Virus record (IMG/VR): IMGVR_UViG_3300045988_068596
DNA length: 64,000 nt
Direction: 5' to 3' (one strand)
DNA from: a virus
Made by a program: the position numbers and the translations under genes. Below are positions 43,889 to 44,459 of this stretch, one piece after another. How positions within the stretch are numbered: position 1 is the first letter of the stretch; each line of letters opens with the position of its first letter. The notes under the pieces are model-generated. The model saw only the letters and a program-made list of their open reading frames with translations, had not been told where the DNA came from and made no database searches.

Positions 43889-43922
43889 GTAAATAAAAAA
43901 CTCATCCGATTAAGAATGAGTT
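43889..43922 (-). terminator. intrinsic terminator closing the Y-RNA-like transcription unit
   Basis: AACTCATTCTTAATCGGATGAGTT followed by TTTTTATTT on the minus strand. Confidence 0.55.
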
Positions 43923-43983
43923 TGTATGTAATATCAAGAACCACAGGCTTAATTAAATTCAATAGTTTTAATTTGTTAGTTGA

Positions 43984-44070
43984 TTGCTGTAGGGTTCTTT
44001 ATGCTCTGGCAACCTAAGAGGTTAGAGCTATGGCAAAATACCAAAACCTTTTTAATATGTAACAAGAATC
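43984..44070 (-). repeat. structured repeat R1 (bulged hairpin 44003-44028)
   Basis: one of 3 copies (R1-R3); outer stem GCTCT/AGAGC covaries with GTTCC/GGAAC in R2 and R3; 3-nt GCC bulge conserved. Confidence 0.6.
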
Positions 44071-44181
44071 TATTTTATACGTTGCTCTACCAACTGAGCT
44101 ACAGGAGGAATCATCCTCCCGGCAGGACTCGAACCTGCGACCCACGGCTCCATAGGCAATAAAAATTGCTGTTAGATTCTT
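44064..44181 (-). ncRNA. candidate Y-RNA-like tRNA mimic A (permuted: T-arm, acceptor hairpin, D-arm; closed by a 7-bp stem)
   Basis: On the minus strand: GCAGG-TTCGAGT-CCTGC, CGGGAGG, loop ATGATT, CCTCCTG, then TA-GCTC-AGTTGGTA-GAGC. Closing stem AAGAATC(44175-81)/GATTCTT(44064-70). Confidence 0.5.
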
Positions 44182-44251
44182 TATGTTCCGGCACCCATTA
44201 AGGATGGAACTATAGCTATGCTAAAACCGTTTTATTTATGTAACAAGAACG
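44166..44251 (-). repeat. structured repeat R2 (bulged hairpin 44185-44210)
   Basis: GTTCC-ATCC-TTAAT-GGGT-[GCC]-GGAAC. Confidence 0.6.
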
Positions 44252-44366
44252 CATTAACTTTAAGCTTTACCAATTAAGCTATACCACCAAGGGTGGCAGT
44301 TGGATTCGAACCAACAACTCACATTTTGCAGATGTATTAGTTTTAAAAGTTTGCTGTGGCGTTCTT
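44245..44366 (-). ncRNA. candidate Y-RNA-like tRNA mimic B (permuted tRNA-like module)
   Basis: GTTGG-TTCGAAT-CCAAC, TGCCACC, loop CTT, GGTGGTA, then TA-GCTT-AATTGGTA-AAGC. Closing stem AAGAACG(44360-66)/CGTTCTT(44245-51) covaries with mimic A. Confidence 0.5.
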
Positions 44367-44435
44367 TATGTTCCGGCTACCTGTTAGGTTGGAACTATGA
44401 CATATGTCAAAACCTTTTTATCTTGTCTTTATAAT
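44351..44435 (-). repeat. structured repeat R3 (bulged hairpin 44370-44395)
   Basis: third copy; its 5'-proximal portion is diverged. Confidence 0.55.
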
Positions 44436-44459
44436 AGCATAAGCTATTTAAACTGTCAA
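44431..44459 (-). promoter_or_regulatory. sigma-A-type promoter for the Y-RNA-like unit (TTGACA-N17-TATTAT)
   Basis: minus strand TTGACAGTTTAAATAGCTTATGCTATTAT. Confidence 0.5.

What the first reader, a model, noticed from the sequence alone, without database searches (positions are those of the whole stretch)
43889..44459. Self-contained ncRNA unit with two circularly permuted tRNA-like modules and three covarying structured repeats, directly upstream of a Ro60-like gene: candidate phage Y-RNA (YrlA-like) array
A unit of about 570 nt lies between its own TTGACA-N17-TATTAT promoter (44431-44459) and an intrinsic terminator (43889-43922), on the minus strand. It has no ORF.

It holds two modules in which a canonical T-arm comes first, then a 7-bp acceptor hairpin, then a canonical D-arm. 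Module A reads GCAGG-TTCGAGT-CCTGC, CGGGAGG, a short loop, CCTCCTG, then GCTC-AGTTGGTA-GAGC. Module B is built the same way. This is the permuted order (T before D) described for bacterial Y RNAs that mimic tRNA. It is not the order of a real tRNA.

Each module is enclosed by a long-range 7-bp stem that covaries between the copies (AAGAATC/GATTCTT in A, AAGAACG/CGTTCTT in B).

Three copies of an ~85-nt repeat flank the modules. Each forms a hairpin with a conserved 3-nt GCC bulge, and the outer stem covaries (GCTCT/AGAGC versus GTTCC/GGAAC).

The next gene downstream on the same strand (42278-43810) is a 510-aa protein with a helical N-terminal region plus a vWA/MIDAS domain, which is the Ro60/Rsr architecture. 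The same phage carries RtcB, a tmRNA and about 27 tRNAs. Together this looks like a Ro-Y RNA ribonucleoprotein module borrowed for RNA surveillance or repair during infection. A phage-encoded Ro60 plus cognate Y-RNA pair has not, to my knowledge, been described.
Basis: partly seen in the sequence, partly recalled or inferred. Interest (0 to 1): 0.9.

Follow-up and report, generated by a model that had tools for sequence, protein, structure and literature searches.

The report
Phage Y-RNA-like array beside Ro60-like gene
An Enterococcus phage carries its own small transcription unit encoding three structured non-coding RNAs, two of them rearranged tRNA look-alikes, next to a gene for a Ro60-shaped protein, and the same RNA signature sits beside this protein family in many other phages and bacteria, so the two probably work together.

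Summary
Window 43891-44459 (- strand) is a promoter-to-terminator unit holding three tandem RNA units. Units 1 and 2 contain a circularly permuted tRNA-like domain: T-arm, then a 7-bp acceptor-like hairpin, then a D-arm. They match Rfam YrlA at E=7e-9 and E=6e-6, but below the gathering score.

Every unit is framed by a covarying helix, AAG.../...CUU followed by G, with the invariant motif ACAGCAA just after the 5' strand. This frame lies on the gene strand next to DUF2828 genes in 65 of 81 viral or metagenomic loci and 72 of 80 bacterial loci. It also occurs in Listeria, Mycobacterium and Felix-O1-like phages.

The YrlA Ro-binding motif GNCGAA is absent. So this is a new variant of the Ro60/Y-RNA theme, not a YrlA/TROVE member.

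The claim that phage Ro/Y pairs are undescribed is wrong (Chen 2014; phiLo 2025). Two recent papers guessed at Y RNAs for this protein family but did not define them. Binding and function remain inferred.

The parts
44431..44459 (-). Sigma-70-type promoter of the RNA array: TTGACA, 17 nt, TG-n-TATTAT
   Evidence: 11 of 12 matches, TG present; for coordinates. Conserved in L001.
44234..44419 (-). Unit 1. Contents: leader hairpins hp1 (44398-44409) and hp2 with GCC bulge (44370-44395); frame 5' strand AAGAACGC (44359-44366); ACAGCAA (44351-44357); anticodon-arm-like hairpin UACAU-CUGCAAA-AUGUG (44320-44336); T-arm (44299-44315); 7-bp acceptor-like hairpin (44282-44298); D-arm (44264-44279); frame 3' strand GCGUUCUU plus G (44244-44252); tail UUACAUA.
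   Evidence: Rfam YrlA hit at 44245-44338, 35.8 bits, E=6.2e-6. 8-bp enclosing helix found by the pairing scan in the near-identical L001 unit (L001 differs at a few bases of this unit). Found by the pattern scan.
44054..44233 (-). Unit 2. Contents: hp1 (44213-44223); hp2 (44185-44210); frame 5' strand AAGAAUCUA (44173-44181); ACAGCAA (44166-44172); T-arm (44122-44138); acceptor-like hairpin (44102-44121); D-arm (44084-44099); frame 3' strand UAGAUUCUU plus G (44063-44072); tail UUACAUA.
   Evidence: Rfam YrlA hit at 44053-44166, 45.9 bits, E=7.4e-9. Hit of model R1, built only from distant loci, at 44058-44187, 24.3 bits, E=0.012.
43924..44053 (-). Unit 3. Contents: hp1 (44031-44043); hp2 (44003-44028); frame 5' strand AAGAACC (43993-43999); ACAGCAA (43984-43990); A/U-rich core with no tRNA-like module; frame 3' strand GGUUCUU plus G (43935-43942).
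   Evidence: Best R1 hit in the whole 64-kb window: 43930-44005, 30.6 bits, E=5.4e-4.
43891..43923 (-). Intrinsic terminator that ends the RNA array
   Evidence: 10-bp stem, 6-nt loop, T-run.
43852..43880 (-). Separate promoter for the protein gene: TTGACT, 17 nt, TG-n-TATAGT
   Evidence: 10 of 12 matches, TG present. An AAGGAGAG ribosome-binding site lies before the GTG start.
42278..43810 (-). 510-aa Ro60-fold protein (Pfam DUF2828 + DUF7788; PHROG 850 'RNA-binding protein'). Helical N-terminal ring plus C-terminal vWA domain with invariant MIDAS residues D311, S313, S315, T384 and D416.

Best explanation
The region is a stand-alone operon of three tandem Y-RNA-like non-coding RNAs. They are most likely the cognate partners of the adjacent Ro60-fold DUF2828 protein.

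Shown:
- A strong promoter and an intrinsic terminator bracket a transcript of about 530 nt.
- The transcript consists of three units built on one plan.
- Each unit is closed by a 7-9-bp helix that starts AAG and ends CUU, followed by an unpaired G. The invariant ACAGCAA lies 0-3 nt after the 5' strand.
- Inside this frame sits an exchangeable core. In units 1 and 2 it is a circularly permuted tRNA body, and unit 1 also has an anticodon-arm-like hairpin. In unit 3 it is an unstructured A/U-rich stretch.
- The same frame lies on the gene strand next to DUF2828 genes across very distant phages and bacteria.

Inferred:
- The frame (helix end, 3' G and ACAGCAA) is the protein's binding site. It would be the counterpart of the Ro60-binding stem of Y RNAs.
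- The precursor is cut in the A/U-rich linkers into separate RNAs.
- The 7-bp acceptor-like hairpins may be cut by RNase P, as in M. smegmatis YrlA.
- The cores act as effector modules that mimic tRNA parts.
- The RNP acts on RNA metabolism or counter-defence early in infection, by analogy with the Rsr-Y RNA-PNPase machine and with Bas63 gp130, which counters the Ppl defence.
For: Anatomy and folding.

Hairpin covariation: 11 of 14 pairs are compensatory, score 0.60 against 0.29 in shuffles.

tRNA-like modules match Rfam YrlA at E=7.4e-9 and 6.2e-6.

Protein has the Ro60 fold.

Association of the frame with the gene:
- ACAGCAA on the gene strand occurs 87 times in the 250 nt upstream of the gene, against 0 on the other strand. 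63 of 80 viral loci have at least one copy within 1 kb upstream.
- The strict frame is found at 118 of 375 ACAGCAA sites, against 1-5 of 30-52 sites for six permuted control 7-mers.
- Covariance model R1 was built from 50 units of distant loci, excluding this phage and its relatives. In the 64-kb window its two best hits are unit 3 and unit 2. The only other match in the window at E up to 1 is weak (17.7 bits, E=0.32).
- All 150 R1 hits in 81 viral or metagenomic loci lie on the gene strand, and 65 of 81 loci are hit.
- All 142 R1 hits in 80 independent bacterial loci lie on the gene strand, nearly all within 2 kb upstream, and 72 of 80 loci are hit.
- In 129 hits from loci not used to build R1, the helix is 95.8% paired, 8 of 8 pairs show compensatory changes, and the 3' G is invariant.
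- Reverse test: tandem-unit patterns in IMG/VR have a DUF2828 gene in the same locus in 31 of 120 cases, 29 of those 31 on the same strand at a median distance of 192 nt. The figure is 0 of 117 for a chance-level pattern.

The same units occur in Listeria LP-039, Mycobacterium phage Breezona, E. coli phage EC6 and Bas63.

A near-identical phage has one extra 155-nt unit inserted exactly at a unit boundary.

Literature:
- Bas63 gp130 is 31% identical to the window protein (E=8e-75) and counters Ppl (PMC11482910).
- In Listeria phage CKA15 the gene CKA15_055, whose product HHpred matches to Rsr, lies within 2 kb downstream of that phage's most transcribed unannotated regions. I take CKA15_055 to be the DUF2828 homolog from that match, its 56.8-kDa size and its position; this was not checked by sequence (PMC12282133).
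Against: - No experiment shows that these RNAs exist as stable species in this phage or that they bind the protein.
- Bas63 gp130 alone, from a plasmid or inside T7, rescues growth on a Ppl strain. At least that phenotype needs no phage-encoded RNA.
- The protein shows no sequence-level link to Ro60 in Pfam or in a profile search of PDB sequences. Common ancestry with Ro60 rests on fold.
- About 10-20% of DUF2828 loci show no unit within the flanks examined, for example Aeromonas phage Aeh1.
- Unit 1 is not recovered by R1. Its core is about 100 nt, against 22-46 nt in the model's seeds.
- The hp1/hp2 leader hairpins are confined to close relatives and are unexplained.
- R1 seeds were chosen for perfect pairing, so pairing statistics on the seeds themselves are circular. 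Only the independent sets count.
Confidence: 0.7

Rival explanations
1. It is an ordinary member of the known YrlA family paired with a true Ro60/Rsr (TROVE) ortholog.
For: - YrlA covariance model hits at E=7.4e-9 and 6.2e-6.
- The permuted T-arm, acceptor hairpin and D-arm order is as in YrlA.
- Ro60 fold of the neighbouring protein.
- Several Y RNAs processed from one precursor upstream of rsr are known in M. smegmatis.
Against: - Scores of 45.9 and 35.8 bits are below the 69-bit gathering score.
- There is no GNCGAAN0-1G motif anywhere in the unit.
- In the YrlA alignment only the tRNA-like part is matched convincingly, not the terminal stem.
- The protein is DUF2828/DUF7788, with no TROVE hit.
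- A different conserved motif, ACAGCAA, marks this family.
Confidence: 0.08
2. The RNAs act on their own, and the DUF2828 gene is merely a conserved neighbour in the phage's 'RNA island'. For example, they could be tRNA-part decoys for host tRNA-cleaving or tRNA-sensing defences, or sponges for host tRNA-processing enzymes.
For: - Cores mimic tRNA parts. 26 of 76 short cores in related loci carry anticodon-stem-loop-like hairpins, against 3.7 +/- 2.0 in shuffles.
- Units often sit inside tRNA clusters.
- gp130 works without the RNAs against Ppl.
Against: - An invariant frame (AAG/CUU-G plus ACAGCAA) is kept while the cores change freely. That is what a common protein-binding handle looks like.
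- Strand and distance coupling to the gene holds in 137 of 161 loci from unrelated lineages.
- It also holds in the reverse direction.
Confidence: 0.13
3. Units 1 and 2 are circularly permuted tRNA genes. They would be matured into working tRNAs by end-joining (for example by the phage RtcB) followed by opening of the acceptor loop, as in the red alga Cyanidioschyzon merolae.
For: - Unit 1 has every arm of a cloverleaf in permuted order, with canonical lengths: 7-bp acceptor, UA at positions 8-9, 4-bp D stem, 5-bp anticodon stem with a 7-nt loop, and 5-bp T stem.
- RtcB is encoded in the phage and lies next to the gene in Listeria LP-039 and in L086.
Against: - Unit 2 has no anticodon arm and unit 3 has no tRNA part at all.
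- The 'anticodon' of unit 1 is GCA here and GAA in a 99%-identical phage, with no other change in the arm.
- 12-14 nt of extra sequence separate the D-arm and the anticodon arm from the frame.
- Most family members have non-tRNA cores.
- RtcB is within 3 kb in only 3 of 86 loci.
Confidence: 0.03
4. The repeats act at the DNA level or in cis. They could be iterated protein-binding sites, for instance for the HTH regulator downstream, or a leader or attenuator that controls the DUF2828 gene.
For: - The units lie directly upstream of the gene in most loci.
- A small HTH gene is a conserved downstream neighbour.
Against: - The array has its own promoter and terminator, and the gene has a separate promoter.
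- Units lie downstream of the gene in Breezona, EC6 and Bas63.
- All 292 model hits are on one strand.
- Helices are maintained by compensatory changes, including G-U pairs.
Confidence: 0.03

Closest known systems
Bacterial and phage YrlA Y RNAs with Rsr/Ro60 (Chen et al. 2014, PMC4201824; Rfam RF02553)
   Same: - Small RNAs encoded next to a ring-shaped protein with a vWA domain.
- A terminal stem formed by the 5' and 3' ends encloses a tRNA-like domain in the order T-arm, acceptor-like hairpin, D-arm.
- Several RNAs come from one precursor.
- A 7-bp acceptor-like hairpin, as in M. smegmatis YrlA, which RNase P cleaves.
   Different: - Scores are below the Rfam gathering score.
- There is no GNCGAAN0-1G motif. 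Instead there is an AAG/CUU-G helix end plus ACAGCAA.
- The tRNA-like core is optional: it is absent from unit 3 and from most relatives.
- The partner protein is DUF2828/DUF7788, not TROVE.
- Arrays reach 6-7 units.
Thermus phage phiLo Ro60 with Yrl1/Yrl2 (PMC12135203; PDB 9KOP, 9L5Y)
   Different: phiLo Ro60 is a TROVE-domain protein. Its RNAs were recognised by a CGAA motif. Binding and a PNPase complex were shown experimentally for phiLo, whereas nothing has been shown here.
Bas63 gp130, a Ro60-like counter of the Ppl defence (PhageMaP preprint, PMC11482910)
   Same: A true homolog of the window protein (31% identity over 494 aa, E=8e-75). ACAGCAA units lie just downstream of it, in the gaps of its tRNA cluster.
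   Different: The authors only guessed that some annotated tRNA genes might be Y RNAs and did not identify the RNAs. The anti-Ppl effect was obtained with the protein alone.
Listeria phage CKA15 protein CKA15_055 and nearby highly transcribed regions (PMC12282133)
   Same: - A Herelleviridae phage.
- By HHpred the protein best matches D. radiodurans Rsr, and it lies downstream of the tRNA region.
- The related phage LP-039 has three ACAGCAA units with their own promoter directly upstream of the gene.
- The authors raised the Y-RNA idea.
   Different: - That CKA15_055 is the DUF2828 homolog is my inference from its HHpred match, size and position; it was not checked by sequence.
- No motif or structure was defined.
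- By my coordinate transfer, the most transcribed region is a ROOL RNA, not the Y-like array. This is an inference.
- The protein was found in purified virions, which has not been reported for Ro60.

Membership tests
YrlA (Rfam RF02553; Chen et al. 2014) | tRNA-like domain in permuted order: T-arm, acceptor-like hairpin, D-arm, enclosed by a stem formed by the 5' and 3' ends | tested here: met
   Units 1 and 2. The cmscan alignment covers the whole model.
YrlA (Rfam RF02553; Chen et al. 2014) | Score at or above the curated gathering score of 69 bits | tested here: not met
   45.9 and 35.8 bits. Absent from the gathering-threshold scan.
YrlA (Rfam RF02553; Chen et al. 2014) | GNCGAAN0-1G Ro60-binding motif on the 5' strand of the terminal stem | tested here: not met
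   No G-N-C-G-A-A anywhere on the - strand of 43880-44470.
YrlA (Rfam RF02553; Chen et al. 2014) | Encoded within 4 kb of a TROVE-domain Ro60 ortholog | tested here: inconclusive
   The neighbouring gene begins about 80 nt beyond the terminator. It is DUF2828/DUF7788 by Pfam but has the Ro60 fold.
YrlA (Rfam RF02553; Chen et al. 2014) | Bound by Rsr in vivo and modified by TruB and DusA | not testable with these tools
   Needs immunoprecipitation and modification mapping.
Ro60 / TROVE (Pfam PF05731) | Significant match to the TROVE profile or to Ro60 sequences | tested here: not met
   No TROVE hit at E up to 1. No PDB sequence hit with the single sequence. With a 45-sequence profile, only a weak vWA-domain hit appears.
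Ro60 / TROVE (Pfam PF05731) | Alpha-helical repeat ring closed by a C-terminal vWA domain with a MIDAS site | tested here: met
DUF2828 + DUF7788 protein family (Pfam PF11443, PF25043; PHROG 850) | Both Pfam domains above their gathering scores | tested here: met
   93.3 bits (cut-off 29) and 154.6 bits (cut-off 27.1). PHROG 850 at E=5.9e-142.
DUF2828-associated ACAGCAA-frame RNA (defined here) | Helix of 7-9 bp that starts (N)AG and ends CU(N') followed by an unpaired G, with ACAGCAA 0-3 nt after the 5' strand | tested here: met
   All three units: AAGAACGC..GCGUUCUU-G, AAGAAUCUA..UAGAUUCUU-G and AAGAACC..GGUUCUU-G. Family consensus.
DUF2828-associated ACAGCAA-frame RNA (defined here) | Match to covariance model R1, built from distant loci only | tested here: inconclusive
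   Unit 3 scores 30.6 bits (E=5.4e-4) and unit 2 scores 24.3 bits (E=0.012); these are the top window hits. Unit 1, with a core of about 100 nt, is not reported.
DUF2828-associated ACAGCAA-frame RNA (defined here) | Same strand as a DUF2828 gene and within about 2 kb of it | tested here: met
   The array ends 81 nt upstream of the gene start, on the same strand. The general rule is shown.
tRNA genes | Standard cloverleaf order detected by ARAGORN or the Rfam tRNA model | tested here: not met
   No call in 43889-44459. Only partial tRNA-model hits of 18.9 and 16.1 bits.
Circularly permuted tRNA genes (C. merolae type) | All tRNA arms present, with termini that can be cut and re-joined to give a complete tRNA | tested here: not met
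   Unit 2 lacks an anticodon arm and unit 3 lacks all arms. The 'anticodon' of unit 1 differs (GCA against GAA) between near-identical phages. No bulge-helix-bulge motif was looked for.

The most novel reading that the evidence does not exclude
DUF2828 proteins and ACAGCAA-framed RNAs form a widespread second branch of Ro/Y ribonucleoproteins carried by phages. A common protein-binding handle displays interchangeable mimics of tRNA parts: anticodon arms, T/acceptor/D bodies, and even whole tRNA-like genes with the handle in place of the anticodon loop. The particle serves as a counter-defence or RNA-protection device, possibly delivered with the virion. The RNAs would tune or target an activity that the protein alone can partly supply, as with Ppl.
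Probability: 0.25. Interest if true: 0.85.

Novelty: new variant of a known kind. Interest (0 to 1): 0.68.

Why it matters
Ro60 and its Y RNAs are a classic RNA-surveillance particle. In bacteria only the TROVE/YrlA form has been described.

The evidence here points to a second and apparently much larger branch. My tblastn search found homologs of this protein in 698 phage records, including Felix-O1-like, Listeria P100-like, mycobacterial and Vibrio phages. The protein search found more than 7,000 homologs. This branch has its own RNA recognition signature and modular, array-encoded RNAs.

A member of the protein family already has a phenotype, since Bas63 gp130 counters the Ppl defence, and a likely member was found in Listeria phage virions. 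Its RNA partners had only been guessed at. Candidate partners with a defined motif make direct tests possible.

The finding also means many phage 'hypothetical proteins', and some odd long 'tRNA' genes in tRNA clusters, are probably mis-annotated RNAs.

Tried and rejected
- T4 stable RNAs C and D as relatives. Neither contains ACAGCAA, and there is no R1 hit in the T4 tRNA region. Rejected.
- Aeromonas phage Aeh1 flanks. No unit within 3 kb of the gene, so the association is not universal.
- Reverse scan with TAAAGAANNNNACAGCAA in IMG/VR. Fourteen specified bases give chance-level single matches, and 0 of 117 such loci hold a DUF2828 gene. It was useful only as a control.
- Sequence-level link to Ro60. 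A single-sequence search and a 45-sequence profile search of PDB sequences found none. I could not build a TROVE alignment for a profile-profile test.
- Tight RtcB linkage. RtcB lies within 3 kb in only 3 of 86 loci, so it is not a general operon partner. In this window RtcB is about 32 kb away.
- A loose '7-bp helix anywhere within 330 nt' test. It does not discriminate (69% against 58% at random positions). I replaced it with the strict frame test.
- Aligning the tRNA-like modules for pair counts. MAFFT put the acceptor hairpins out of register, so I report the pattern scan with its minus-strand control instead: 15 hits against 0.
- Literature. Burroughs & Aravind 2016 and the 2020 Annual Review on bacterial Ro60 are not held. 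'DUF2828' returns only plant and tardigrade papers.
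Full report
**What the window is.** The region is 99.9% identical to Enterococcus phages EA1 and ZJGS3, and about 97% identical to EFDG1 and EfV12-phi1, which are large Enterococcus phages. In those records it is annotated only as 'hypothetical protein' next to a 'DUF2828' or 'RNA-binding protein' gene. It lies at the downstream end of a minus-strand RNA-gene cluster. That cluster holds 24 tRNAs by ARAGORN (26 Rfam hits), a tmRNA and a ROOL RNA.

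**Checking the observation.** On the minus strand there is a near-consensus promoter, TTGACA-17-TATTAT with an extended TG, at 44459-44431. There is an intrinsic terminator at 43923-43898 plus a T-run. A second promoter at 43880-43852 serves the protein gene.

Landmark searches and self-alignment show three tandem units starting at 44419, 44233 and 44053. Each unit begins with:
- AAAA(A/C)GGUUUU;
- a short hairpin (hp1);
- a longer hairpin with a 3-nt GCC bulge (hp2);
- CAUAAAGAA-nn-nACAGCAA.

Each unit ends nn-UUCUUG-UUACAUA, or nn-UUCUUG-AUAUUACAUA in unit 3.

Units 1 and 2 enclose a T-arm, a 7-bp hairpin in the place of the acceptor stem, the dinucleotide UA, and a D-arm. The spacing is exactly tRNA-like. 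Unit 1 also has a 5-bp stem with a 7-nt loop, CUGCAAA, in the anticodon-arm position. Unit 3 has the same frame around an A/U-rich core whose predicted fold is no better than shuffles.

Units 1 and 2 fold as described, with z = -2.8 and -3.9. No tRNA is called there. The only correction is that the 'three 85-nt repeats' are the 5' parts of three units of one kind.

**The hairpins.** I aligned 11 units from this phage, a 100%-identical-protein relative (L001), and relatives whose proteins are 74% and 63% identical (L002, L084). hp1 and both stems of hp2 are 93.5% paired, and 11 of 14 pairs show changes on both sides. The covariation score is 0.60 against 0.29 in shuffles (0 of 500 reach it) and 0.07-0.18 for slid registers.

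These hairpins are absent from more distant relatives (L085, L086, Listeria phage). They are a lineage-specific addition whose role I cannot assign.

**Comparison with known RNA families.** At a permissive threshold the only meaningful Rfam matches are to YrlA (RF02553). They are 44053-44166 at 45.9 bits, E=7.4e-9, and 44245-44338 at 35.8 bits, E=6.2e-6. Both are well below the family's 69-bit gathering score. The alignments show that the tRNA-like part carries the score, while the terminal stem is poorly matched.

Chen et al. (2014) describe a GNCGAAN0-1G motif on the 5' strand as the conserved Ro60-binding feature of YrlA. It does not occur anywhere in the unit.

**The protein.**
- The 510-aa product of 42278-43810 matches Pfam DUF2828 and DUF7788 and PHROG 850 'RNA-binding protein', but not TROVE.
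- Sequence searches of PDB find no Ro60, even with a 45-sequence profile.
- An AlphaFold model built on that alignment is confident: pLDDT 91.8, pTM 0.91.
- Foldseek against PDB returns Ro60 structures as the five best hits, aligned over 515-579 columns. They include Thermus phage phiLo, Xenopus Ro60 and a Ro60/pre-5S rRNA complex. Only vWA domains follow.
- The MIDAS residues D311, S313, S315, T384 and D416 are invariant in the family alignment.

So the protein has the Ro60 architecture, but it belongs to a separate sequence family.

**The family signature.** The 74%-identical relative L002 has five units upstream of its gene, with the same frame. The inner base pairs of the closing helix change in a compensatory way: AAGAAUGC/GCAUUCUU, AAGAACGU/ACGUUCUU, AAGAACC/GGUUCUU, AAGAAGC/GCUUCUU and AAGAAUC/GAUUCUU.

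In 80 IMG/VR loci encoding proteins only 35-40% identical, the 7-mer ACAGCAA is heavily concentrated on the gene strand just upstream of the gene. The two 250-nt bins nearest the gene hold 87 and 58 copies, against 0 and 0 on the other strand. A second cluster lies just after the gene.

I defined a strict frame: a perfectly paired helix of at least 7 bp whose second and third bases are AG, ending 0-3 nt before ACAGCAA, with its partner strand followed by G. This is present at 118 of 375 ACAGCAA sites. For six permuted control 7-mers it is present at 1-5 of 30-52 sites.

**An independent model.** I built covariance model R1 from 50 such units with short cores, excluding this phage and its close relatives.
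- In the 64-kb window its two best hits are unit 3 (30.6 bits, E=5.4e-4) and unit 2 (24.3 bits, E=0.012). The only other match at E up to 1 is weak (17.7 bits, E=0.32).
- In 81 viral or metagenomic loci all 150 hits at E up to 0.05 lie on the gene strand, and 65 loci are hit.
- In 80 loci from bacterial genome assemblies, none used for the model, all 142 hits lie on the gene strand. Nearly all are within 2 kb upstream, in arrays of up to six or seven, and 72 loci are hit.
- In 129 hits from loci not used to build the model, the helix is 95.8% paired and all 8 pairs show compensatory changes. The score is 0.52 against 0.195 in shuffles and 0.05-0.14 for slid registers.
- The consensus is A-A-G-R-C-R-C, then 0-2 nt, then ACAGCAA ... 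G-Y-G-Y-C-U-U-G, with the final G invariant.

**The reverse test.** A pattern for two tandem units, scanned through IMG/VR, returned 120 loci.
- 31 of them hold a DUF2828 gene. In 29 of those 31 it is on the same strand, at a median distance of 192 nt.
- None of 117 loci from a chance-level pattern holds one.
- Properly paired frames occur in 21 of the 31 loci with the gene, and in 10 of the 89 without it.

**Cultured phages.** tblastn finds the protein in 698 phage records.
- Listeria phage LP-039 has three units with their own promoter directly upstream of the gene.
- Mycobacterium phage Breezona is annotated 'Ro-like RNA binding protein'. It has three units directly downstream of the gene. 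The middle one carries a YrlA-type module, and a terminator follows.
- E. coli phages EC6 and Bas63 have units in the gaps of the tRNA cluster after the gene.

**What the cores are.** Cores are exchangeable. They range from plain A/U-rich stretches, through T-arm-only cores and YrlA-type bodies, to nearly whole tRNAs.
- Among 76 distinct short cores, 26 contain an anticodon-stem-loop-like hairpin (7-nt loop, Y-U-NNN-R-N), against 3.7 +/- 2.0 in shuffles.
- In several loci Rfam calls 'tRNAs' of 113-130 nt. These are normally ordered tRNA-like genes whose anticodon loop is replaced by a capped helix plus ACAGCAA. That is a circular permutation of the window's layout.
- A pattern scan for T-arm, 7-bp hairpin and D-arm finds 15 modules on the gene strand of the loci and none on the opposite strand.

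**The array is modular.** L001, whose protein is 100% identical, has one extra 155-nt unit inserted exactly at a unit boundary. Its unit-1 'anticodon' is GAA instead of GCA. That argues against a decoding role.

**Mechanism, and what is inferred.**

*Shown:* a self-contained transcription unit; three structured units sharing a conserved frame; a Ro60-fold neighbour; and a near-universal, strand-specific association of frame and gene.

*Inferred:*
- The frame is the protein's binding handle, the analogue of the Ro60-binding stem.
- The cores are effector modules that mimic tRNA parts.
- The precursor is cut into separate RNAs.
- RNase P may open the 7-bp hairpins, as it does in M. smegmatis YrlA.

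*Biological role:* there are two pointers from the literature.
- Bas63 gp130 is needed for normal plaques on a strain carrying the Ppl defence and can be moved into T7. I verified it as a homolog of the window protein (31% identity, E=8e-75). That rescue works with the protein alone, so the RNAs are not required for that phenotype. This is the main caution.
- In Listeria phage CKA15 the protein CKA15_055, which HHpred matches to Rsr, was found in purified virions. Its gene lies within 2 kb downstream of the phage's most transcribed unannotated regions. I take it to be the DUF2828 homolog from that match, its 56.8-kDa size and its position; this was not checked by sequence. By coordinate transfer to LP-039, the top region is a ROOL RNA (90 bits), not the Y-like array. 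This is my inference.

The Ro-likeness of DUF2828 proteins is recognised in annotations and in two recent papers, and both papers guessed at Y RNAs.

I found no paper or Rfam family that defines the RNA partners, the ACAGCAA frame, the arrays, or the anticodon-arm mimicry. The library does not hold everything, including Burroughs & Aravind 2016.

I therefore rate this a new variant of a known kind.

Noticed in passing
window 45345-45445 (-): A third YrlA-like element (Rfam RF02553, 28.4 bits, E=0.0022 in a 2.6-kb search) lies between tRNA-Ala and tRNA-Pro. It has T-arm ACGGG-UUCGAAU-CCCGU, 7-bp hairpin CCUGCGG/CUGCGGG and D-arm GCUG-AAUGGUUAA-AGC, closed by GGACAGUG/CACUGUCC. It has no ACAGCAA frame. 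It is conserved in L001.
   Followed up: partly
window 45446-45599 (-): About 150 nt of unannotated sequence lie between tRNA-Ala and the element above. It includes an anticodon-arm-like hairpin (CAGG-GUUGCAAA-CCUG) followed by CUGUAACAUA, which resembles the CUUGUUACAUA unit ends.
   Followed up: no
window 53025-53611 (-): Full-length ROOL RNA (260 bits, E=3e-58) inside the tRNA cluster. A weaker ROOL match (90 bits, just under the gathering score) sits about 1 kb upstream of the DUF2828 gene in Listeria phage LP-039 (L081 1460-2011). By coordinate transfer it is probably the most highly transcribed region reported for phage CKA15.
   Followed up: partly
window 47209-47559 (-): Phage-encoded tmRNA (145 bits; tag peptide AKNEELLAVA) among the tRNA genes.
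   Followed up: no
window 44484-44708 (-): A 74-aa ORF (PHROG 6885, no Pfam hit) lies directly upstream of the RNA array. Homologs sit in the same position in L001, L002, L084 and Listeria phage LP-039 (L081 2064-2282). It is a conserved small neighbour of unknown role.
   Followed up: partly
window 42004-42234 (-): A 76-aa HTH_3 (Cro/C1-type) protein gene lies just downstream of the Ro-like gene. The same neighbour is found in L001, L002, L081, L084 and L086.
   Followed up: partly
window 44741-44818 (-): A sub-threshold tRNA-like match (27.7 bits against a 29-bit gathering score) that ARAGORN does not call. It may be a decayed tRNA gene.
   Followed up: no
L006 2393-2515, L015 2573-2687, L028 2200-2329, L030 2462-2584, L088 7151-7272 and others: 'tRNA' hits of 113-130 nt. 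They have a normal acceptor, D-arm and T-arm order, but the anticodon loop is replaced by an insert of about 45 nt holding a capped helix plus ACAGCAA. This is a circular permutation of the window's unit layout. The Aeh1 case (L088), annotated as a 122-nt tRNA-Val, is listed only for its length; no ACAGCAA occurs in that locus.
   Followed up: partly
L406 (Bas63, MZ501086) 22749-23023: Two short antisense 'hypothetical protein' CDSs (bas63_0137 and bas63_0138) overlie an ACAGCAA unit that has a YrlA-type tRNA-like module. They are probably annotation artefacts.
   Followed up: partly
L001 2412-2566 versus the window unit 1/unit 2 junction (window ~44237): A phage with an identical protein carries one extra 155-nt unit (frame AAGAAGCA/UGCUUCUU, T-arm-like UAGGUUCAACUCCUA). 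The window phage lacks exactly this unit. Several GenBank relatives (EfV12-phi1, iF6, PEf771, EFGrNG) also have about 155 nt more here.
   Followed up: yes
window 8845-10089 (-) and 37209-37961 (-): An RtcB RNA ligase gene lies about 32 kb from the array. A LAGLIDADG homing-endonuclease ORF lies beside the anaerobic ribonucleotide reductase gene; I named that reductase from its translation and did not scan it.
   Followed up: no
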